DNA of 64,000 nucleotides from Kiritimatiellia bacterium (GCA_040767085.1 JAXGPF010000008.1:96001-160000); one strand, 5' to 3'; counted from the stretch's first letter, positions 789 through 9,500 are shown. The notes: a model not told the origin generated them from the letters alone. Program-made: numbers and translations.

Positions 789-2498
789 ATGGACCGTGAA
801 CGGATCATCCGCGAACTCGCCAAGTGCCGGCTGAAACCGGATGGACACAGGCGTCAGTACACGATAGCCGGAAAGTTGGGACAGGGAGGGAATGGCGTCA
901 CGTTCGTCGTTCATGTTGGCCGGCGGGAGCTTGTGGCAAAGATATATGTCCCTCCGGACAGCCGGGATCTCGACAATGCCGCCTTCAAGCGATTCACCCG
1001 CGAGATTGAACTCTCCAGTCGGACTCACCATCCCTTTGTCGTCCCGGTTGCGGGAACTGGCAACATCGCGGTGGGCGCTTATACGTTCCCTTTTTATCTG
1101 ATGCCCAAAGCGAAGGGCACACTTCGCAGTCTCATCCCCTCAGCGTTCACGCTTGACGGTCTCGGCTTCAGGCTCCGTACCTTTACGCAAGTCGTAAGCG
1201 GAGTCTCCTATCTGCACCACATCGGCATCTTTCACCGGGACTTGAAACCAGAGAATATTCTCCTGTCCGATAACGGCCTTCCGATGGTGGCCGACCTCGG
1301 CATTGCCCACGTTGCGCCCTCTTTCGTCGAATGGAGCAAGCTTACCCTCCCAAAAGACCATTTGATGAACTGGGATTACTACGCACCCGAACAGAGAGAT
1401 GGTGACGCTACCAAGGTCGATCATCGCGCCGATATCTATGCCTTGGGCCTAATCATGTATGAACTTATGACTGGCGTTTCCCCGTCACGCCCAAACCTCC
1501 CGGAATTGTACAGCTTTGACGTTCGACTCGCGCGGTTGGATAGCATCTTTGGAAAGATGACGGCCCATTATCCTGAGAAACGCTATCAGACTCTTGATGT
1601 ACTCCAGGACGAGTTGACATGGACACTGATTGCCTTGGGAATTCCAACGGAGGCGCCTTCTTCTGATGAGGCAGACAAACGGAGCCTGGTCAGGCTACTG
1701 CGCAGCACCAATGCCGCTAATCGTGCCCGCGCACAGGAGATTGTTCGGCGCCTAGCAGACAAGGCATTGCCCGAGCTTCACGAGATGACCGGCGACACGC
1801 GCGTGGACGTTGCCCTATCCGCGTACAAACTTCTTGGAAATCTTGTCCACAAGGAATCATTGCCGTATTTGTTGGCAGGATTGTACCCGCGACGCTCGGC
1901 GCAGAAGCCCAGATTTGTTACTGGCGAGGCAGCTGCAGAGGCCCTGCGCAACTACCCCGTTGAGGACAGACTGGCGACACTTAGGGCGATTAAGGACTTG
2001 GTTCTCGCCAGACACATCGGCCTCATCATAGAAGGTATTCCGGCACAAGATTCCTACCCACTCGCATCCCGACTGTACGAGTCTAAGCTGTTCTACGACG
2101 ACTGGAGTGAGGAATCAGGCCTCGCCTTCTTACTCCGTCTTGACCAGAATGAGGCTTGGCCGCTTGTCGAGCGCAAACTGGCAAGCGGCTCAACCGTTTA
2201 CTCCTTTACCGTCTTTCGAGACTTCTTCCCCAATGTGAATTCCGACCGACAGAAGCTCCTTATTGACTACATGCTCAATCGCGATAGCGATCTCAGCTCA
2301 TGGGAGCTTCCCAGGCTTCTGGATGCCATTGCGGCATCTTTCGTCCCCTCGCAATTTGCCTCGGAAGCACTATCACGACTCAAAGATGTTGCACAGCGGC
2401 GAATCCGAAAGTGGGATGAGCGGGAAGCATTTGTTCGCAAAGTGGAGGAGCTAGAGGTGAAAACGATCGCTCCTGCAAAGAGCCCAAAGAAATCATGA
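789..2498 (+). CDS. Hanks-type Ser/Thr protein kinase with C-terminal HEAT-like helical region (integron cassette)
   Basis: LGQGGNG, VAK, HRDLKPENIL, ADLGIA, YAPEQ and DIYALG motifs; HEAT-like repeats after ~aa 295; bounded by attC-1 and attC-2. Confidence 0.88.
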   Translation: MDRERIIRELAKCRLKPDGHRRQYTIAGKLGQGGNGVTFVVHVGRRELVAKIYVPPDSRDLDNAAFKRFTREIELSSRTHHPFVVPVAGTGNIAVGAYTFPFYLMPKAKGTLRSLIPSAFTLDGLGFRLRTFTQVVSGVSYLHHIGIFHRDLKPENILLSDNGLPMVADLGIAHVAPSFVEWSKLTLPKDHLMNWDYYAPEQRDGDATKVDHRADIYALGLIMYELMTGVSPSRPNLPELYSFDVRLARLDSIFGKMTAHYPEKRYQTLDVLQDELTWTLIALGIPTEAPSSDEADKRSLVRLLRSTNAANRARAQEIVRRLADKALPELHEMTGDTRVDVALSAYKLLGNLVHKESLPYLLAGLYPRRSAQKPRFVTGEAAAEALRNYPVEDRLATLRAIKDLVLARHIGLIIEGIPAQDSYPLASRLYESKLFYDDWSEESGLAFLLRLDQNEAWPLVERKLASGSTVYSFTVFRDFFPNVNSDRQKLLIDYMLNRDSDLSSWELPRLLDAIAASFVPSQFASEALSRLKDVAQRRIRKWDEREAFVRKVEELEVKTIAPAKSPKKS

Positions 2499-2569
2499 GC
2501 AGAACAATCGGCTTCACTCTTACGGTTGCCCCGGGGCGGATCAACCGAAGGTGAGCCGTAACGTTCGGC
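2499..2569 (+). other. attC recombination site 2
   Basis: R'' GCAGAAC immediately after the kinase stop, complementary to the preceding R' GTTCTG; L'' CGGCTTCAC / L' GTGAGCCG; R' GTTCGGC (2563-2569). Confidence 0.88.
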
Positions 2570-2578
2570 AGTAGAGAG

Positions 2579-3226
2579 ATGAAGGCAATAATCCATAGGG
2601 AACTATTGCTCCGTCCGCGTACTGGATACGCAATGGATGCCGTCCAAGCCATTGCCGACTTTTGTGCGCAGTCAGAAGACTACACCTATCTGCGAAAAGA
2701 AACGGACGAGTACTGCAGGCACATCAATGCAGATGCCTGCATGATTGCGGATCGATCCTCCAAAGTCTTCCCCGCGCTAGCCTTTGCGTCGTCTGACGGT
2801 GCTGTGCTCCAGGTTGTGAACATTGTTCCCGGCAGCGTTTCCGAAATCGGAATAGCGGACTACAACATGATACTTGACCGCTTCACCAAGGCATTCGCAA
2901 TATTTTGCGGGGCAAAACGGGTTAAGATGACTATAACACAGACATCGGACTCACTGACCCTCGAGTCGGCTATTCCGGGGAGAAAGACCCGCGACTTCTT
3001 CCAGCGTTTCCTCAATCTGCATCCGACGAGTTACCACCCATCTGACATCGAGCGGCTTGATGTCTTCATCTGCGCTGCTTCAAGATACCACTCTGGCGGC
3101 TTCAACACACATCGGCTCCGCAGGTATTTGATGGAGGTTTTGGAATGGAAAGAAAAGGACGCATCCTGGTGTTGTGACCGAATTGATGCCGGACTGGACA
3201 TTCTGAAAGTAAACAGGAAATTCTAG
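2579..3226 (+). CDS. hypothetical protein (integron cassette)
   Basis: 215-aa ORF starting 10 nt after attC-2; its stop abuts an R'' box GCCGAAC complementary to attC-2 R'. Confidence 0.75.
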   Translation: MKAIIHRELLLRPRTGYAMDAVQAIADFCAQSEDYTYLRKETDEYCRHINADACMIADRSSKVFPALAFASSDGAVLQVVNIVPGSVSEIGIADYNMILDRFTKAFAIFCGAKRVKMTITQTSDSLTLESAIPGRKTRDFFQRFLNLHPTSYHPSDIERLDVFICAASRYHSGGFNTHRLRRYLMEVLEWKEKDASWCCDRIDAGLDILKVNRKF

Positions 3227-3236
3227 CCGAACAAAC
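3226..3236 (+). other. truncated attC site 3 (R'' box only)
   Basis: GCCGAACAAAC right after the stop. No matching L'/R' half; it is followed by GTAAGCGTCCGG. Confidence 0.6.
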
Positions 3237-3308
3237 GTAAGCGTCCGGTGGAGCGCCCCCTATGCAAACACTCCGGACGTGGCAAACTGCTTTGGGTTAA
3301 ATTATGTA
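3237..3308 (+). mobile_element. probable IS66-family terminal remnant
   Basis: Begins GTAAGCGTCCGG, typical of IS66 terminal IRs; cut off by the HUH-element left end at 3309. Confidence 0.4.
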
Positions 3309-3336
3309 GGCGTGGGGTCGGACCGCGGCAAGTTGT
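3309..3336 (+). repeat. HUH-element left-end stub (28 bp)
   Basis: GGCGTGGGGTCGGACCGCGGCAAGTTGT, the same motif as at 3340, 3993, 4656 and 4892. Confidence 0.85.
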
Positions 3337-3339
3337 GGG

Positions 3340-3697
3340 GGCGTGGGGGTCGGACCGCGGCAAGTTGTTGTTTGATAGGTGGATAGCCCGATATTATGGT
3401 GAAAAAACGCCTTAAAGGTGTTTTTTGGCGGGCTTTTTGTGTTATAAGCACCTGTAGGCCGGGAAGGATTTGTAAATGAAATGGCCAAAACAATTATGAA
3501 CCGGAGGAAATTGGCGATAGAGCAAGAGCCGATTGCTGGTGAATCGGAAGCGTATATTCTAAGGGAGCAGCCCATTGGCTATGGTAATGCTTAATGTTTA
3601 TTTTGGTAATGAAAAAACGGCGCTAAGGGCCTTTAAAGTATCTGAAATATCTTTAAAGCATTGGTTTTTAGCATATTGCCGAGGTCCGACCCTGTGG
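3340..3697 (+). mobile_element. internally deleted (non-autonomous) copy of the HUH/Y1 element
   Basis: Left end plus leader (to ~3451) is joined directly to sequence matching 5617-5860 (3' end of the transposase and right end TTGCCGAGGTCCGACCCTGTGG at 3676-3697). Confidence 0.88.
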
Positions 3698-3738
3698 TGC
3701 GCACGGGAACCGTGTCCAGCGAAACCAGGAGAAACGCG

Positions 3739-4038
3739 ATGAATATCGAAATCATGCGAGCTTTCTTTGGGTGGTGTACCGTCATCAACGGTGCGTTTCT
3801 GCTTCTAGCATTCTTGTTGTGCGCGAAGGCGAGCGACTGGGTGTACAGGATGCACAGCAGGTGGTTCCCCATCAAAAGGGAGGCATTAACATTGACGATG
3901 TATTGCTTCATCGGAGGGATGAAGATTATCTTTATTATGCTAAACCTTGTGCCATATTTGGCGCCATATTTGGCGCTTGTCATTCTGGCGGGGGCGTGGG
4001 GTCGGACCGCGGCAAGATGTTGTTTGATAGGTGGATAG
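3739..4038 (+). CDS. DUF6868-like small membrane protein; C-terminus fused to the element left end
   Basis: AGGAG RBS, then MNIEIMRAFFGWCTVIN...LNLVPYLA, matching this family pattern. Carries a 12-bp tandem duplication GCCATATTTGGC; the last ~14 codons come from the repeat at 3993. Confidence 0.7.
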   Translation: MNIEIMRAFFGWCTVINGAFLLLAFLLCAKASDWVYRMHSRWFPIKREALTLTMYCFIGGMKIIFIMLNLVPYLAPYLALVILAGAWGRTAARCCLIGG

Positions 4039-4156
4039 CCCGATATTATGGTAAAAAAACGCCCTTAAAGGTGTTTTTTGGCAGGCTTTTTGTGTTATAA
4101 GCACTTATATTCGTATCATGCCGAGAAAAAATCGCTATTTCATGTGTGGTCATTTA
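3993..4156 (+). repeat. left-end-only partial copy of the HUH element (includes the first ~13 codons of the transposase)
   Basis: Aligns to 4892-5055; ATG at 4118 reads MPRKNRYFMCGHL, then similarity stops. Confidence 0.85.
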
Positions 4157-4213
4157 GCTTGGGGAAACTCTTAACCAGATATTCCAGCGCATGGCCGGTC
4201 CGCGCTGCGTGCG

Positions 4214-4290
4214 GCCCAACCATGCACTGGACCGTCAATGGTCCGCACACACGCAGTGTGCGGCGGCCCGCCGCCAGCGCCCCGTTCGGC
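4214..4290 (+). other. attC recombination site 4
   Basis: R'' GCCCAAC, L'' GCACTGG / L' CCAGCGC, central CCGCACAC..GTGTGCGG hairpin, R' GTTCGGC; next ATG at 4316. Confidence 0.68.
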
Positions 4291-4315
4291 CAGAAGGCCA
4301 GAAGGGAGAGGGGAG

Positions 4316-4702
4316 ATGAGAAGGATAGTCGTGGCAATGCTGGTGTTTGCGGTGGGCACGATGATCGCAGTGTCACACCCCGGTGGGCTTGATGCAAACG
4401 GCGGCCACTACAACCGAAAGACGGGCGAATATCACTATCACCGACAACCTGCGGCAAACCCGCAGCCGCCTGCGCGATTAACTCCGTCTGCATCGCAGTC
4501 CGTCTCGACAAACAAGACGCAGACGATAGAGAAGTCGTTTTGGCTCAACACGTCCTCAGGCGTCAGGCACAACAAAGGATGCCGTTGGTTCGGGAAGACG
4601 CAAGGCGGTCGCTACTGCGGGCCAAATGAGGGGCGAGCGTGCGGGCAATGTGGTCGGCGTGGGGGTCGGACCGCGGCAAGTTGTTGTTTGATAGTAGGAT
4701 AG
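4316..4702 (+). CDS. secreted YHYH-domain protein with Cys-rich C-terminus; tail fused to the element left end
   Basis: Signal peptide, HPGGLDANGGHYNRKTGEYHYH motif, WLNTSSGVRHNKGCRWF...ACGQCG; reads into the repeat at 4656. Confidence 0.75.
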   Translation: MRRIVVAMLVFAVGTMIAVSHPGGLDANGGHYNRKTGEYHYHRQPAANPQPPARLTPSASQSVSTNKTQTIEKSFWLNTSSGVRHNKGCRWFGKTQGGRYCGPNEGRACGQCGRRGGRTAASCCLIVG

Positions 4703-4891
4703 CCAGATATTATGGTAAAAATACGCCCTTAAAGGTGTTTTTTGGCCGGCTTTTTGTGTTATAAGCACTTATATTCGTATCATGCCAAGAAAAAACCGGT
4801 ATTTCATGTGTGGTCATTTATGGCACTTGACCCATAGGTGTCACAACCGTGATTTTTTGCTGAAATTCGGTAAGGACCGTGATGCTTACCG
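4656..4891 (+). repeat. left-end-only partial copy of the HUH element (includes the first ~36 codons of the transposase)
   Basis: Aligns to 4892-5126; ATG at 4782; ends abruptly at the next left end. Confidence 0.88.
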
Positions 4892-5860
4892 GGCGTGGGG
4901 CCGGACCGCGGCAAGATGTTATATGACAGGTAGATAGCCCGATATTATAATTAAAAAACACTCTTAAAGATGTTTTTTGGCGGGTTTTTTGTGTTATAAA
5001 TACTTATATTCGTATCATGCCAAGAAAAAACCGATATTTCGTGTGTGGTCATTTATGGCACTTGACCCATAGGTGTCACAACCGTGATTTTTTGCTGAAA
5101 TTCGGTAAGGACCGTGATGCTTACCGCAACTTGCTCCGAGCGCGGCTACAAGGTTCTGGGGTTGATTTATACGGTTATTGCCTTACTGGCAACCATGTTC
5201 ATCTCTTGGTGCATAGCGATGCCGGCCTGGATATACCTGCTCTAATAAAGTCAGTGGCCGGTGAATTTGCCCAAGCGTATAATCGGCGCAAAAGGCGCAC
5301 GGGCGCTTTTTGGGGAGACCGGTACCATGCTACGCTGGTTGATAGCGGAAAATATTTGTGGCGTTGTCTGCAATATATTGATCTGAACATGGTGCGTGCC
5401 GGGCGTGTGACGCATCCTGCGGATTGGCCATGGTGCGGATATCATGAATTGGTGGGGGAACGCAAGCGTTACTGTTTAATAAACAGGGATGGATTACGAG
5501 CGGCGTTAAATTTTTCTTCAATTGAGAGTTTTAGCGATGAATATCGGGCAGGCATTGTTGCGCGGTTGGCGGAGCAAAACCTGCTGCGGGAGCCCTGTTG
5601 GACAGAGGTCTTGGCCGTAGGCCGGGAAGGATTTGTAAATGAAATGGCCAAAACAATTATGAACCGGCGGAAATTGGCGATAGAGCAAGAGCCGATTGCT
5701 GGCGAATCGGAAGCGTATATTCTAAGGGAGCAGTCCATTGGCTATGGGAATGCTTAATGCTTGTTTTGGTAATGAAAAAACGGCGCTAAGGGCCTTTAAA
5801 GCATCTGAAATATCTTTAAAGCATTGATTTTTAGCATATTGCCGAGGTCCGACCCTGTGG
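4892..5860 (+). mobile_element. full-length HUH/Y1 (RAYT-like) transposase element with inverted end motifs
   Basis: Left GGCGTGGGGCCGGACCGCGGCAAG (4892-4915) and right TTGCCGAGGTCCGACCCTGTGG (5839-5860) enclose the transposase gene. Confidence 0.82.
5017..5757 (+). CDS. Y1 HUH transposase (IS200/REP-associated tyrosine transposase-like)
   Basis: MPR start, WHLTHRCHN, YCLTGNHVHLL (HUH), FWGDRY, YIDLNMVRAG (catalytic Tyr), WPWCGY. Confidence 0.92.
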   Translation: MPRKNRYFVCGHLWHLTHRCHNRDFLLKFGKDRDAYRNLLRARLQGSGVDLYGYCLTGNHVHLLVHSDAGLDIPALIKSVAGEFAQAYNRRKRRTGAFWGDRYHATLVDSGKYLWRCLQYIDLNMVRAGRVTHPADWPWCGYHELVGERKRYCLINRDGLRAALNFSSIESFSDEYRAGIVARLAEQNLLREPCWTEVLAVGREGFVNEMAKTIMNRRKLAIEQEPIAGESEAYILREQSIGYGNA

Positions 5861-6010
5861 CCGTGTCGTCCGACGGCATGACGATCCACTGTCTCAACGG
5901 TTTGCCGTGTCGCTGTGCGAGTGGGCGGAGACACAGGCAGGAGAGAAAAACGCGATTGATCCCCGTCCGTTGCTCGTGTAATCTATGCTTAGCAAAAGGG
6001 AGATAATGTT

Positions 6011-6199
6011 ATGCCAACCGTCATGAAGAAAGAATCAGCACACAAAATCATCGACCGCATGCCTCAGCAGGCGACATGGGATGACCTTATACACGAAATT
6101 TACGTTCACGAGGCGATCGAACGAGGGCTAGCCGATAGCAAGGCCGGAAGGACCAAAGAAGTTAAAGAAGTCCGTGCCAAATACGGCTTGCCGATATGA
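6011..6199 (+). CDS. antitoxin of a RelE/ParE-type TA pair
   Basis: 62 aa, ATWDDLIHEIYV..AIERGLADSKAGR pattern; ATGA overlap with the toxin. Confidence 0.75.
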   Translation: MPTVMKKESAHKIIDRMPQQATWDDLIHEIYVHEAIERGLADSKAGRTKEVKEVRAKYGLPI

Positions 6200-6538
6200 G
6201 AGTTCATTGGACAGACACGGCTCAATCCCATCGGCGCCATCCACGCATATATTGCCCAAGACTCCGCCGAGTACGCCATCTACACGATAGATCGCCTGAC
6301 GCGACGCTCTCAGCAAATTGCCGACTTTCCTCTTTCGGGTCGTCGTGTGCCGGAATATGAAATGGACCAAATTCGAGAGGTAATCGAAGCTCATTACCGG
6401 ATCATCTATTACATTAAATCAGACCAGATTGACGTTTTGGCTATCATTCATGAGGCAAGAAATATCCTGGCCGATTGCCAAGAAAACAACATAGCCGAAC
6501 CAGATTTTCCAGCGGATGGCGACCAGCGCCACCGCTGA
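6196..6538 (+). pseudogene. RelE/ParE toxin, frameshifted near 6230
   Basis: MRVHWTDTAQSH in one frame; GAIHAYIAQDS...FPLSGRRVPEY...YRIIY..IDVLAIIH continues in another frame (looks like 2 nt missing at CAT C|GGC). Confidence 0.8.
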
Positions 6539-6552
6539 AAATTATGTTCGGC
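6494..6552 (+). other. attC recombination site 5 (59 bp, terminal site of the array)
   Basis: R'' GCCGAAC, L'' TTTTCCAGCGG / L' CCGCTGAAAA with an extra base, R' GTTCGGC; host backbone resumes directly after. Confidence 0.9.
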
Positions 6553-6559
6553 GATTATT

Positions 6560-9500
6560 TTAGTCTCCAACCTTGCCCGTTCCCCGCCCATAGATCAGGT
6601 TGTAAACCACCGGGATCACCAGCAAGGTGAAGATGGTGGAGACGAATAAGCCGAAGATGATGGACCAGGCCAGGCCGCTGAAAATCGGATCGAGGGTGAT
6701 CGGCCAGGCGCCCAGCAGCGTGGTGCCGGCGGTCAGGAAAATCGGGCGGAACCGCGTGGCGCCGGATTCCAGGATGGCCTCGCGCAACGAACGCCCCGCC
6801 GCCGTGTTGACGCGGATGAAGTCAATCAGGATGATGGCGTTGCGCTGGACGATGCCGCCCAGGGCGATCATGCCGATCATGGCGGTGGCGGTGAAAAACA
6901 CGGGAGTGTCGAAACCGCCCACCGGGCGGTTCACCAGCAGGTTCAACAGCCAGAAACCCGGCATGATGCCGATCAGCGTCAGCGGGATGGACATCATGAT
7001 GACCAGCGGCAGCAGGTAGGAGCTGGTTTCGTAAACCAGCAGGACGTAAATGGCCAGGAGCGCCACGGCGAAGGCGATGCCCAGGTCGCGGAAGACATCC
7101 ACCGTGATCTTCCATTCCCCTTCACCGGCCCAGTCCGCCCTGAGACCCGCCGGCAGCGGATTGGCTTTCAGCCATTGCTGCATGGCCAGCACTGCCTCCG
7201 CCGGGCCGCGGCCCGCCATCTCGGCCGTGACGTACACCACCCGCTCCTGGTTTTTATGCATGATGGACTTGTCCTCCACCTGCTCCTCGAACCGGCCCAG
7301 TTCGCCCAGTTGGACAAATTGGCCCTGGCGGCCCTTGATGGGCAGGGTGGCCAGCAGGGCGGTGTCGGAACGCTTGTCGCGGGGCAGCCGCAGCACGAGC
7401 GGCAGTTCGTTCTGTTCGGACGGGGTATGAACCGTGCCGACCATCTGGCCGTCCAGCGCCAGCCGCAGCACCTGGGCGGCGTCCGCCGCGGCGATGCCGC
7501 TGCGTCCGGCGAGATCGCGGTCAACATGGAAAAACCATTTCTGCTGGTTGGTTTCGACCGAGTCGTCCACTTCGACGACTCCCGGCTCCTGTCGCAACCG
7601 CGCGGCCACCTGGCGGGCGCCGGCGATCAATTCGTCGTATTGCTGGTGCGGCTGGCCGTAGATTTCCGCCACCACGGTCGCGAGCACCGGCGGGCCGGGC
7701 GGAGCCTCCACGAGCTTGACCTGCGCGCCATGCCGTTCAGCGATGGCGGCGATGTCATTGCGGATGCGCAGGATGATATCGTGGCTGGATTGCGCCCGGC
7801 GCTGGCGCGGCAGCAAGTTGACGCGGATATCCCCGAGGTTGGGCGCTTGGCGCAGGTAATAGTGCCGGACCAGTCCGTTGAAGTCCATCGGCGAAGGCGC
7901 GCCCAGGGTCGTGGTGAAGTCCACCACTTCCGGTACGCCGCGCAGGTAATCCTCTGCGTCGCGCGCCAGGGCGTCGGTCATTTCCAGCGGGGCGGATTCG
8001 GGCAGGTCCAGCACGAGCTGGAATTCGTTTTTATTGTCGAAGGGCAGCATTTTCAGGGGCACGCGGCCGGTGGCGGCCAGCAGCAGCGCGCCGGCGAACA
8101 GCGCGGCCATCACCGCCAGCAGCAGCCAGGCGGCCCGGCGCGAATCCACGAACGGGGCGGCCAGCCGGCTATAAACCGCGTAGGTGCGGGTGGTCCGCAC
8201 ATCGTAAGGCTTGGCATTGTCCGCCGGGGCGCGCAGCAGCTTGTTGGCCAGCCATGGCGCCAGGGCGAACGCCACCAGCATGGAACTGATCATCGTCAGC
8301 GGCACGTTGAGGGCCATCGGGCGCATGTAGGGGCCCATCATGCCGCTGATGAAAAACATCGGGATGAACGAGACGATGATCGCCAGCGTGGCCAGCACGA
8401 TGGGCGGCATCACTTCTTCCATGGCCAGTTGCACGGCCTCCTCGCGGCGGTGGCGTTTCATGGCGAAAAAGCGGTAAATGTTTTCCACGCTGACGATGGG
8501 GTTGTCCACCAGCAAGCCCAACGCCAGGATCAGCGCGAACAGCGTCACGCGGTTGATCGTGTAGCCGAACAGGAAGTTGCACAGGAGCGTCAGGGCGTAG
8601 GTGATCGGGATCGCCAGCCCGACGATCACGCCGACCCGCCAACTCATGGTCAGGGCGATCAGGGCGACGACGGTGAGCATCCCCAGGCCGAGGTTGAGCA
8701 CCAGGTCGTTGACTTTTTCGTTCGCGGTGGCGCCGTAGTCCCGCGTAATGCGGACGGCGACATTGTCCGGGATGGTCCGGCCCTGCAGCGCCCGCAGGGC
8801 GCGTTCCAGTTCCCGCGCCACTTGCACGGCATTGCTGCCCTTCTTCTTGGCCACGGCGATGCTCACCGCGGCCCGGGGCGCGGCGCCGTCCGGCGCCGCG
8901 AACGCCGGGTCGGCCGGCCCATGGTGGAAGCGGGTCAGGGTGCGCGGTTCCGCCGGGCCGTCGGCGATCCGCGCGACGTCCCGCAGGTAAACCGGGCGGC
9001 CGGCATGCAGCCCCACCATCAGGTTGGCGACTTCGCCGGCATCCCGCAGAAACGGCCCGGCCGCGACCGTCGCCACGGCGTTGCCCTGCTCGAACGAGCC
9101 GGCCTGGAGCTGCAGGTTGCCCGCCTGCAGCGCGCCGGCGATTTCGCGGGGGCAGAGGCCGTGCGCCGCGAGTTGTTCCGGATCGAGGTAGACGGTCAAC
9201 TGGCGTTTTTCGCCGCCGTGAATGGTGATGGCGGCGCTGTCGGGCACGTGCTGGAGTTTGCCGACGACTTCCTCGGCGATTCGGTAGAGCGCGTGGGTGT
9301 CGCAACTCCGGCTGTGCAGGGTGGCGGTCAGAATCGGCACGTCGTCAACTTCCACCGGCTTGACCACCCAGCCGGCGATGCCGGGGGTGGCTTTATCCAC
9401 ATTCTGGAAAATCTTGTTGTACAGCTTGATCAGGCTGGCTTCGCGGTCCTCGCCCACGTAAAACCGCACGGTCACCACCGCCATTCCCGGGCGCGAGGTG

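What the first reader, a model, noticed from the sequence alone, without database searches (positions are those of the whole stretch)
3309..5860. HUH/Y1 transposase element with inverted ends forming a ladder of one-ended copies interleaved with gene cassettes
Seen: the motif GGCGTGGGG(G)(T/C)CGGACCGCGGCAAG occurs five times (3309, 3340, 3993, 4656, 4892). Its inverse TTGCCGAGGTCCGACCCTGTGG occurs twice (3676, 5839). Every copy starts at the same left boundary but stops at a different point: 28 bp, ~164 bp, ~236 bp, an internally deleted 358-bp two-ended copy, and a full 969-bp copy. The copies differ by many substitutions. Small passenger genes sit between them. Known: IS200/605 TnpA and RAYT are ssDNA HUH enzymes that recognise hairpins; IS200/605 lack TIRs, and RAYTs are usually non-mobile with REP flanks. 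Inference: a fixed nick site joined to variable partners suggests an HUH-driven, one-ended strand-transfer system that captures, trims or reshuffles neighbouring genes. It may act as an integrase-independent cassette-remodelling system inside an integron array.
Basis: partly seen in the sequence, partly recalled or inferred. Interest (0 to 1): 0.85.

Follow-up and report, generated by a model that had tools for sequence, protein, structure and literature searches.

The report
Worn transposon copies among gene cassettes
A small jumping gene of a known but little-studied kind has landed several times in one row of swappable gene cassettes, leaving stumps that all keep the same left end, and its relatives in other bacteria leave the same kind of stumps.

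Summary
There are five left ends (3309, 3340, 3993, 4656, 4892) and two right ends (3676, 5839). One 969-bp copy is intact, one 358-bp copy is internally deleted, and three are left-end-only remnants of 28-31, 165 and 236 bp.

The element is not a new class. It is a TIRtron: a RAYT-like Y1/HUH gene (TIRYT) flanked by terminal inverted repeats (Di Nocera 2013; Quentin 2018). Thirty-nine distinct relatives from many phyla share the end core GGGGTCGGACC.

The setting is an attC cassette array without an integrase. The passenger genes are ordinary cassettes. The YHYH cassette occurs in a congener with the same G|TT boundary and no transposon sequence. Gene capture by the HUH enzyme is therefore not supported.

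- A complete Desulfosarcina genome has identical 288- and 426-nt left-end fragments head-to-tail before a full copy.
- 12 of 39 left flanks and 11 of 39 right flanks carry 8-16-nt tandem duplications at the element tip, against 1.6% of control windows.

Best reading: a decayed same-orientation TIRtron cluster whose junctions are by-products of the transposase's own end processing. Interest is moderate.

The parts
2499..2569 (+). attC-like site after the Ser/Thr kinase ORF (boxes GCAGAAC ... GTTCGGC, single bulged hairpin)
   Evidence: 71 nt, -31.7 kcal/mol, intergenic
2579..3226 (+). 215-aa ORF with no family match, a cassette gene
3226..3302 (+). weaker attC-like site (GCCGAAC ... GTTAAAT). 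Stub A starts 6 nt after it.
   Evidence: X1 and X7 contigs diverge at 3250.
3309..3339 (+). copy A: solo left-end TIR stub (28 nt plus GGG), head-to-tail with B
3340..3697 (+). copy B: two-ended, internally deleted copy (left 109 nt plus right 244 nt)
   Evidence: X5 contig 3000-3483.
3739..3992 (+). DUF6868 cassette gene. It runs into copy C at its last codons and contains a 12-nt tandem duplication at 3952-3975.
3993..4156 (+). copy C: left-end-only fragment (about 165 nt)
   Evidence: X1 contigs 3668-4025 and 4093-4777.
4214..4290 (+). attC-like region with box GTTCGGC at 4284-4290. The cassette boundary is G|TT at 4284/4285. 4184-4290 is 91% identical to a repeat on the IntI-bearing contig G002:C38.
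4316..4655 (+). YHYH-domain cassette gene, cut two codons before its stop by copy D
   Evidence: 83% to G001:C58
4656..4891 (+). copy D: left-end-only fragment (236 nt) abutting E
4892..5860 (+). copy E: full TIRtron (969 bp). The left core carries a T-to-C change (GGGGCCGGACC).
5017..5757 (+). tnpA (TIRYT), 246 aa. HUH at H60/H62, Tyr120. dN/dS 0.11 against the G016 copy.
5835..5855 (+). right TIR (21 nt, 90% complementary to left TIRs)
   Evidence: I3, I7-I10
6011..6538 (+). ParD-like antitoxin (6011-6199) and ParE-like toxin split over two frames (6196-6360, 6347-6538). This is the last cassette.
6494..6552 (+). textbook 59-nt attC (GCCGAAC ... GTTCGGC, two extrahelical bases), next to the conserved RND gene
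   Evidence: Conserved DNA starts at 6584.

Best explanation
Window 2499-6552 is a small integron-type cassette array with no integrase gene in this genome. A roughly 970-bp TIRtron has colonised it repeatedly and always in one orientation. A TIRtron is a RAYT-like Y1/HUH transposase gene between imperfect terminal inverted repeats, here with the core GGGGTCGGACC.

Only copy E still encodes the enzyme. B is an internally deleted derivative. A, C and D are left-end remnants. The left boundary is constant because it is the true tip of the element, where the enzyme cuts.

Inferred mechanism, by analogy with HUH chemistry. The enzyme nicks at the outer edge of a TIR and stays bound to the 5' end. 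That end is then sealed to whatever 3'-OH is at hand. Often this is a strand that has been copied or nicked only part of the way through a neighbouring copy. The result is a head-to-tail junction: left end 1..p, then a new left end. A|B and D|E are such junctions. Relatives show the same series, from 8-16-nt tip duplications through 30-nt TIR stubs to fragments of several hundred nt.

C is more likely a separate insertion at the 3' end of the DUF6868 cassette that was later truncated.

The passenger genes are pre-existing attC cassettes, not captured cargo. The repeats then act as homology for cassette loss.

Shown: element type, boundaries, orientation, cassette nature, recurrence in the family, the natural deletion variant.
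Inferred: nick position, strand-transfer origin of the junctions, reason for clustering.
For: Element type:
- Pfam Y1_Tnp 2e-11.
- HUH and Tyr are invariant in 30 homologues.
- AF2 pLDDT 87.6. The best structural match is TnpA_REP 4er8 (E 7e-8, TMt 0.75), ahead of IS608 and ISDra2.
- 39 distinct relatives among 88 loci carry both cores 850-1150 bp apart.
- The literature describes TIRYT/TIRtrons.

Functional gene: dN/dS 0.11.

Cassettes:
- attC folds.
- Homology to G001 starts at the TT of G|TTCGGC and stops at D's left end. That G001 locus has no TIR core.
- Integron integrase above the cut-off is found in 14 of 31 genomes of the bacterial family, including G002:C38 and G003:C4, and in 0 places in G000.

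Fixed end with variable partner in relatives:
- Desulfosarcina alkanivorans has left-end fragments of 288, 426 and 672 nt that are identical where they overlap (287/288, 424/426). Each ends 1-2 nt before the tip of the next left end.
- L031, L062, L073, L074 and L042 have TIR stubs directly before the left end.
- 4 of 39 elements have left-end-anchored pieces within 60 nt upstream.

Tip duplications: 12 of 39 left and 11 of 39 right outer flanks, against 265 of 16739 control windows. Inner sides give 1 and 0 of 39. Binomial p is 6.5e-13 (left flanks) and 1.7e-11 (right flanks).

Chemistry precedent: TnpA_REP joins an added 3'-OH to its cleaved 5' end in vitro (PMC8266576, passages).

Repeat-mediated cassette loss: X4 contig joining 3339 to 4656.
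Against: - No TIRYT has been studied biochemically in the papers I could find, so the nick site and strand are unknown.
- D and E are not recent duplicates. They differ at 21 of 126 positions in the first 125 nt and at 3 of 111 afterwards (Fisher p 3.6e-4). The D|E pair is therefore a mosaic and could equally come from insertion of a second subfamily into D.
- C and B are separated from the next left end by cassette DNA, which the head-to-tail model does not explain.
- Right-end-only fragments occur in G002.
- Most relatives (30 of 39) show no partial copy within about 4 kb.
- No empty site was recovered for the C23 copy.
- The order of the repeat units rests on one assembly.
Confidence: 0.45

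Rival explanations
1. Passive decay only. Related elements inserted into or next to one another in a dispensable region. The remainders were then lost by ordinary deletion, by homologous recombination between direct repeats, or by transposase excision between two like right ends. No special one-ended joining is involved.
For: - Two left-end haplotypes exist (B, C, D and C18 against E), with C23 intermediate.
- D against E is a mosaic.
- Copies are 3-16% diverged, so they are old.
- A natural deletion occurs between two left ends.
- Both left-only and right-only fragments occur in the genus.
- Internally deleted copies have three different breakpoints.
Against: - Random deletion does not predict that three independent junctions in D. 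alkanivorans end within 1-2 nt of the next element's tip.
- It does not predict the strong excess of 8-16-nt duplications exactly at both tips.
- It does not predict whole-TIR stubs in tandem in several phyla.
Confidence: 0.35
2. One reading: an HUH-driven one-ended strand-transfer system whose role is to capture, trim or reshuffle cassettes without an integron integrase.
For: - Copies are interleaved with cassettes in an array without IntI.
- Left-end fragments of at least 60 nt carry a promoter-like site pointing into the next cassette.
- A variant lacks two cassettes between left ends.
- A Brocadiia locus (L042) has left-end fragments in front of paralogous RHS genes.
Against: - Cassette boundaries are integron boundaries, and the YHYH cassette exists elsewhere without the element.
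- Both cassette genes are damaged at their 3' ends by the insertions rather than carried intact.
- No cassette is found moved together with an end. The two other genomic copies carry no passenger.
- Promoter-like sites are not above shuffles (4 found, 4.1 expected).
Confidence: 0.08
3. The left-end fragments are parts of cassettes or larger segments that were multiplied or brought in by integron or homologous recombination (segmental duplication), not by separate transposition events.
For: - B, C and D share one left-end haplotype at 94-95%.
- In L042 a left-end fragment plus an RHS piece recurs as a unit.
- The X4 arrangement could be the ancestral state into which a circle carrying one left end and two cassettes recombined.
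Against: - The fragments end at different element positions and sit at different places relative to gene and attC.
- The flanking cassette DNA shows no duplication.
Confidence: 0.07
4. Assembly artefact: repeats were collapsed or mis-ordered in a metagenome-derived genome.
For: The units are separated by repeats longer than short-read k-mers. Three junctions are covered by only 29-30 letters on the repeat side.
Against: - Six junctions are bridged by contigs of independent runs with 0 differences.
- The copies differ by many substitutions, which lets them be told apart.
- The contig is 278 kb.
Confidence: 0.03

Closest known systems
TIRtron / TIRYT (Di Nocera et al. 2013, PMC3733652) and subclass 2.1 of TnpA-Y1 (Quentin et al. 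2018, PMC6006769). Passages read.
   Same: A RAYT-like Y1/HUH gene longer than classical RAYTs. It is flanked at about 100 bp by terminal inverted repeats beginning with a G-run motif, not by REP hairpins. Solo and paired TIRs occur elsewhere in the genome. The taxonomic spread is wide and patchy.
   Different: - The end motif reads GGGGTCGG, which matches the published GGGGWSAS at 7 of 8 positions.
- The Tyr motif reads Y-x3-N-M, whereas class 2 is described as Y-x3-N-P.
- No Pfam HTH was found in the C-terminal part.
- Here the element behaves as an insertion sequence, with internally deleted and one-ended copies. The family shows tip duplications and head-to-tail ladders. The passages I read do not mention these. 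Di Nocera's text has 0 occurrences of 'duplication' or 'target site'. Quentin's has 0 of 'tandem', 'direct repeat', 'integron' and 'MITE'.
REPtron: RAYT (TnpA_REP) with REP/REPIN repeats
   Same: Closest solved structure (4er8). The intact gene is single-copy with non-coding derivatives of its ends. The enzyme class cuts DNA and joins a free 3'-OH to the cut 5' end.
   Different: - There is no high-copy REP family: only 7 close motif copies in 4.08 Mb.
- There is no hairpin-type REP.
- The NCBIfam equivalog score is below the cut-off (69 against 80).
- Partial copies include pieces of the gene itself.
IS200/IS605 (IS608, ISDra2)
   Same: Y1 HUH transposase fold. Strand- and orientation-biased copies. 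No classical target-site duplication (left and right flanks are unrelated).
   Different: - That family lacks TIRs and uses subterminal hairpins.
- Here TIRs are conserved across phyla, and the right end shows no significant fold (z 0.31).
- The protein is about 100 aa longer.
IS91/ISCR rolling-circle elements with one-ended transposition. The mechanism is recalled, and it is also summarised in PMC7923331 passages.
   Same: HUH chemistry. One fixed end with a variable other end.
   Different: Those elements overrun their terminator end and carry adjacent DNA along, so the copies are longer than the element. Here the copies are shorter than the element and carry nothing. The enzyme is a small Y1 protein, not the larger IS91-type one.
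Mobile elements that live in attC arrays (IS1111-attC group and group IIC-attC introns: recalled; an IS200/605 element beside a CALIN: PMC7923331 passages)
   Same: Occupation of integron cassette arrays, including arrays without an integrase, by elements that work on single-stranded or folded DNA.
   Different: Here the insertion points are not inside attC. They lie 6 nt after one attC and at the last codons of two cassette genes. Targeting of attC is not shown.

Membership tests
TIRtron / TIRYT | RAYT-like Y1 protein with an HUH motif and a catalytic Tyr | tested here: met
   Pfam Y1_Tnp 2e-11. H60, H62 and Y120 are invariant in 30 sequences. Foldseek top hit is 4er8.
TIRtron / TIRYT | gene flanked by terminal inverted repeats instead of REP hairpins | tested here: met
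   17-21-nt arms, 90-94% complementary. The same core is found at both ends of 39 distinct relatives.
TIRtron / TIRYT | TIR motif GGGGWSAS (as printed in PMC3733652) | tested here: inconclusive
   The window has GGGGTCGG, which matches 7 of 8 positions.
TIRtron / TIRYT | solo, paired or grouped TIR copies in the genome | tested here: met
   Stub A, the stubs before the C23 copy, and a solo TIR in G001:C90.
TnpA-Y1 subclass 2.1 (Quentin 2018) | C-terminal extension with HTH similarity (Bac_DnaA_C, HTH_23, HTH_28) | tested here: inconclusive
   The extension is present (246 aa, helical C-terminal part). No Pfam family was found at E up to 10 for residues 141-246.
TnpA-Y1 subclass 2.1 (Quentin 2018) | class-2 Tyr motif Y-x3-N-P | tested here: not met
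   Y120-I-D-L-N124-M125. N and M are invariant in alignment A1.
TnpA-Y1 subclass 2.1 (Quentin 2018) | assignment by the authors' clustering or HMMs | not testable with these tools
   Their models are not on hand.
IS200/IS605 | no TIRs; subterminal hairpins at both ends guide cleavage | tested here: not met
   TIRs are present. The right end folds no better than shuffles (z 0.31), and the left end has one hairpin 60 nt inside.
REPtron (RAYT) | flanking REP hairpins that belong to a high-copy REP/REPIN family | tested here: not met
   With the 19-nt motif at up to 2 mismatches, 10 places were found in the genome, 7 of them exact. The reversed-pattern control also gave 10. All true copies are parts of the longer element.
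REPtron (RAYT) | NCBIfam NF047646 equivalog cut-off | tested here: not met
   69 bits against a cut-off of 80.
Integron cassette array / CALIN | attC sites: inverse boxes pairing around a bulged hairpin | tested here: met
   6494-6552 (59 nt, -35.1) and 2499-2569 (71 nt, -31.7). 3226-3302 and 4214-4290 are weaker. The box consensus used for the scan was recalled.
Integron cassette array / CALIN | cassette boundary inside the 3' box (G|TT) | tested here: met
   Homology of the YHYH cassette to G001:C58 begins at 4285, the TT of GTTCGGC.
Integron cassette array / CALIN | integron integrase next to the array | tested here: not met
   TIGR02249 scores at best 101 bits against a cut-off of 265 in G000, which is 95% complete. 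It is present above the cut-off in 14 of 31 genomes of the bacterial family. The array is therefore CALIN-like.
IS91/ISCR one-ended rolling-circle transposition | copies share the origin end and extend beyond the other end into flanking DNA | tested here: not met
   The one-ended copies stop inside the element at positions 28, 165 and 236.

The most novel reading that the evidence does not exclude
TIRtron transposases work unlike IS608-type enzymes. They nick the G-rich strand at the outer edge of both inverted repeats, and the covalently held 5' end is frequently sealed to a nascent or nicked 3' end that has travelled only part of the way into the element. This would leave a graded, polar record that can be read in genomes of many phyla:
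- 8-16-nt duplications at both tips;
- 30-nt TIR stubs;
- head-to-tail ladders of left-end fragments that grow towards the full copy (28, 109, 165, 236 and 969 nt here; 288, 426 and 934 nt in Desulfosarcina).

The same reaction would seed the dispersed TIR and REP-like repeat families. In cassette arrays it would scatter promoter-bearing left ends that serve as portable homology for cassette loss or gain.
Probability: 0.3. Interest if true: 0.65.

Novelty: new member of a known kind. Interest (0 to 1): 0.42.

Why it matters
TIRtrons make up one of the largest groups of RAYT-like genes. Quentin et al. put subclass 2.1 in 14.9% of strains. Yet I found no biochemical study of them in the held library.

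If the tip duplications and left-end ladders are footprints of the enzyme's reaction, they give a sequence-only handle on three things: where it cuts, which strand it holds, and how solo TIR or REP-like repeats are born.

For integron biology the case shows an insertion sequence decaying inside an integrase-less array. Its repeats already mark one natural two-cassette deletion.

The finding does not reveal a new class of cassette-shuffling machine.

Tried and rejected
- Classical target-site duplication. The left and right flanks of 39 relatives are unrelated, and the duplications are tandem on each side. Rejected.
- A terminal hairpin pairing the outer 5 nt with the bases after the core. By eye it does not hold in relatives (L058, L032, L073, L024; sequences). 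Dropped.
- Empty site for the C23 copy. The left flank is conserved in the genus but synteny ends at the gene stop. No empty site was found.
- Empty site for copy C. One X4 contig joins 3962 to 4187 with only 30 letters on one side and unknown letters between. This is too weak to use.
- Stretches of 3000-6600 without contig cover in X5 and X7. No inference was drawn.
- attC scan of C27:60000-112000. Most hits lie in GC-rich coding DNA and are taken as chance. Only the intergenic ones were kept.
- Promoter and terminator scan. There were 4 promoter-like sites against 4.1 expected, so it is not evidence.
- Rfam on 2400-6700 gave 0 matches.
- Plasmid collection, protein mode. The best identity is below 40% and all hits are annotated only as 'transposase'. 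No named IS was found.
- Pfam on the C-terminal 106 aa found nothing.
- Full-text search for the 9-nt core gave 91 papers; none of the 15 listed concerned transposons.
- Left-end against right-end polarity. There are 5 left-only pieces (A, C, D, G002:C2, G001:C90) against 2 right-only (G002:C76, C68). The numbers are too small to claim polarity.
Full report
**1. What is there**

Its imperfect inverse occurs twice (3675-3693, 5838-5856). Dinucleotide shuffles of the window give 0.31 expected.

I used the longest copy (E, 4892-5860, 969 bp) as the BLASTN query against the whole genome. The window is G000:C27:96001-160000, and the genome has 4.08 Mb in 28 contigs. The pieces are:

| Copy | Window position | What it is |
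|---|---|---|
| A | 3309-3339 | 28 nt of left end plus GGG |
| B | 3340-3447 + 3454-3697 | left 109 nt joined to right 244 nt |
| C | 3992-4156 | left end only |
| D | 4656-4891 | left end only, ends exactly where E begins |
| E | 4892-5860 | full copy |

- All copies point the same way.
- Two more copies exist. C23:155654-156097 is internally deleted at other breakpoints and is preceded by 8-nt and 22-nt left-end stubs. C18:2-143 is cut by the contig end.
- Only E encodes a full protein. The genome's other Y1 homologues are 27-33% identical.

**2. Is the structure real?**

I laid Logan contigs of four runs from four studies on 3000-6600.

- Contigs with no differences bridge these points by at least 31 letters on both sides: the attC-1/A/B region and B's deletion point (X5, 3000-3483), the gene/C junction (X1, 3668-4025), and C's right end through the YHYH gene into D (X1, 4093-4777).
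- The junctions at 3697/3698, 4891/4892 and 5860/5861 are reached by only 29-30 letters on the repeat side. That is what a k-mer assembler leaves at a repeat (my inference). They are consistent but not strictly bridged.
- Short contigs cannot prove the order of units.
- One X4 contig joins 3339 directly to 4656. The two sides share 39 identical letters. This is a natural form lacking B, both cassettes and C.
- Joints 4881-to-5651 (X4, X5) and 4878-to-5644 (X1, X4, X5) are internally deleted copies. The first fits the C23 copy.

**3. What the element is**

The ORF 5017-5757 (246 aa) gives these results:

- It matches Pfam Y1_Tnp (2e-11). It matches NCBIfam REP-associated tyrosine transposase below its cut-off (69 against 80 bits).
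- In an alignment of 30 homologues H60, H62 and Y120 are invariant.
- The AlphaFold model (pLDDT 87.6) is closest to E. coli TnpA_REP (4er8: E 7e-8, TM 0.75 on the target, rmsd 2.4). IS608 and ISDra2 transposases come next.
- The word-indexed database holds 2279 homologues with E at most 0.001 among 3000 candidates. Many sit on contigs of about 1 kb. The best, at 85%, is named a Lentisphaerota transposase.
- Against the 86%-identical copy in G016, dN/dS is 0.11.

Among 88 related loci (8, 80), 39 distinct elements have the core GGTCGGACC-like at the left and its complement 850-1150 bp to the right. They come from Verrucomicrobiota, Lentisphaerota, Planctomycetota, Acidobacteriota, Desulfobacterota, Gammaproteobacteria and others.

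This is the published TIRtron. Di Nocera et al. 2013 named RAYT-like genes flanked by TIRs 'TIRYT'. They gave the motif GGGGWSAS and noted solo, dimeric and grouped TIRs (passages). Quentin et al. 2018 equate most of them with subclass 2.1 of TnpA-Y1, which is Bertels' RAYT group 1 (passages).

Membership is not perfect:
- The motif fits 7 of 8 positions.
- The Tyr motif is Y-x3-N-M rather than the Y-x3-N-P given for class 2.
- No Pfam HTH was found in the C-terminal part.

**4. The surroundings**

- Position 6494-6552 is a textbook 59-nt attC. It has complementary 7-nt boxes, a stem with two extrahelical bases and a small loop.
- Position 2499-2569, just after the kinase ORF, is a second good attC.
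- Positions 3226-3302 and 4214-4290 are weaker.
- The window's YHYH cassette is 83% identical to G001:C58 from exactly the TT of GTTCGGC (4285) to 4653, two codons before the stop in G001 and three bases before D's left end at 4656. That G001 locus has attC-like repeats and no TIR core.
- The DUF6868 ORF aligns over residues 1-76 with homologues of 80-82 aa. Copy C therefore sits at its last codons.
- Conserved chromosome (an RND pump) begins at 6584.
- No integron integrase reaches the TIGR02249 cut-off in G000 (best 101 against 265 bits).
- However, 14 of 31 genomes of the same bacterial family have one. Among them are G002:C38, the contig that also holds a 91% copy of 4184-4290, and G003:C4.

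The array is thus a CALIN-like cassette row. The 'passenger genes' are ordinary cassettes that the element damaged. They are not cargo it brought.

**5. The ladder**

The copies are old. Left-end parts are 84-95% alike and right-end parts 94-97%.

There are two left-end haplotypes: B, C, D and C18 against E, with C23 in between.

D and E differ at 21 of 126 positions in the first 125 nt but at 3 of 111 afterwards (Fisher p 3.6e-4). D|E is therefore a mosaic, not a fresh duplication.

E's left core has a T-to-C change. It is seen 2 times against 37 for the usual form in the related loci.

In the genus, G002 has a 76-nt left-only fragment next to a minimal attC-like palindrome, and two right-only fragments. 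G001 has a solo TIR. Decay therefore leaves both kinds of end.

**6. What recurs in the family**

Three things go beyond simple decay.

(a) Whole-TIR stubs lie in tandem directly before the left end in L031, L042, L062, L073 and L074. They lie after the right end in L055 and L075.

(b) Short tandem duplications abut the tips.
- With periods of 8-16 nt and at most 1 mismatch, they occur in 12 of 39 left and 11 of 39 right outer flanks, and on at least one side in 17 of 39 elements.
- The rate is 265 of 16739 (1.6%) in random 36-nt windows of the same loci. On the inner sides of the cores it is 1 and 0 of 39 (binomial p 6.5e-13 for the left flanks and 1.7e-11 for the right).
- The repeated unit usually includes the first 2-4 G (or last C) of the element.

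(c) The complete genome of Desulfosarcina alkanivorans has ladders.
- One locus reads left-end fragment of 288 nt | the same element's fragment of 426 nt | a full copy of a 25%-diverged relative.
- A second locus reads a fragment of 672 nt | full copy.
- The three fragments are identical where they overlap (287/288, 424/426).
- Each stops 1-2 nt before the 8-nt outer tip of the next left end. No right end of that element is found.

Because the same 8-nt tip precedes the core in different contexts there, the tip belongs to the element.

In 39 elements, 18 of 20 nearby partial matches are in the same orientation, and 9 elements have at least one.

A Brocadiia locus (L042) shows left-end fragments before paralogous RHS genes. 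That is another array of swappable gene ends.

**7. How it most likely works**

Established knowledge: HUH enzymes cut one strand, stay bound to the 5' phosphate through Tyr, and reseal to a 3'-OH. TnpA_REP joins an added oligonucleotide in vitro (PMC8266576, passages).

Inference:
- The TIRYT cuts at the outer edge of a TIR.
- The held 5' end is sometimes sealed to a 3' end that lies part-way inside a neighbouring or sister copy.
- This gives the junction: left end 1..p, then a new left end.
- With p of about 10 this is a tip duplication. With p of about 30 it is a TIR stub. With p in the hundreds it is a ladder rung.
- The mirror pattern at right ends suggests action on the G-rich strand of both TIRs.

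This accounts for A|B, D|E, the stubs at C23 and the Desulfosarcina loci in single steps. I put it at about 0.45.

The main rival (0.35) is nested insertion followed by loss of the remainder. That loss could come from recombination, from deletion, or from excision between two right ends.

C and B need a separate insertion plus deletion in either case.

Clustering in one orientation fits strand-biased reinsertion into a dispensable, hairpin-rich region. This was not tested.

**8. What is not supported**

- No cassette is seen travelling with an end.
- Promoter-like sites in the left end are no more than chance in number.
- The element inserts beside attC and at gene ends, not in attC itself.
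- A role as an integrase-independent remodelling system (0.08) rests only on the one deletion variant.

**9. Verdict**

The element is a new member of a known kind (TIRtron) decaying inside a CALIN.

The modestly novel part is the polar junction signature at the family level. The passages I read in the two TIRYT papers do not mention it. Their supplementary alignments and figures were not seen and might bear on this.

Noticed in passing
window 2499-2569, 3226-3302, 4214-4290, 6494-6552: There is a cassette array with attC sites but no integron integrase anywhere in this 95%-complete genome. Congeners G002 and G003 have integrases on contigs that share repeats with this window. A 569-aa Ser/Thr kinase gene (789-2498) is followed by an attC and may itself be a cassette.
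   Followed up: partly
window 6196-6538: The ParE-like toxin reading frame is split over two frames (6196-6360 and 6347-6538) behind an intact ParD-like antitoxin ORF (6011-6199). It is probably a frameshifted toxin gene in the last cassette.
   Followed up: no
window 3952-3975: There is a 12-nt perfect tandem duplication (adding PYLA) inside the DUF6868 gene, 17 nt before the left end of copy C. Homologues lack it. It resembles the flank duplications seen at relatives' tips.
   Followed up: partly
window 4897-4907 and 4923-4951: The only coding copy (E) has a T-to-C change in its left core that is rare in the family. Its substitutions also turn the left-end promoter-like site from 9/12 to 11/12 matches. 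This may be a master copy with an impaired end and a stronger promoter.
   Followed up: no
L160 (G169:C1:600830-602480) and L159 (G169:C1:588898-590505): The complete genome of Desulfosarcina alkanivorans has ladders of identical left-end fragments (288, 426 and 672 nt) head-to-tail before full copies of a diverged relative. The right flank repeats a 9-nt unit 2-4 times.
   Followed up: yes
L042:2088-4825 (Candidatus Brocadiia contig): Left-end stub, 192-nt left-end fragment, RHS-repeat ORF, 190-nt left-end fragment (91% alike), then a full element of another type, followed by a paralogous RHS-repeat ORF. This is the same architecture in a polymorphic-toxin-like array.
   Followed up: partly
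run X4, joint 3339 to 4656 on the window: This is a natural structural variant lacking 1316 bp (B, DUF6868 cassette, C, attC, YHYH cassette) between two left ends that share 39 identical nt. Contigs for the missing genes occur in the same run at other depths.
   Followed up: partly
G000: C24:12610-13038, C22:154375-155001, C22:375220-375657, C3:163324-166475, C25:228338-228703, C26:85976-86341: There are eight further distant Y1-transposase-like matches (27-33% identity) in long open frames of 199-485 aa. Two adjacent ones on C3 each carry a TAG stop. They may be other RAYT/TIRYT-type genes.
   Followed up: no
G000:C5:117640 and C5:121057: Two TIR-like cores with similar inner sequence lie 3.4 kb apart and face outward from each other. 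They are not the ends of one element.
   Followed up: no
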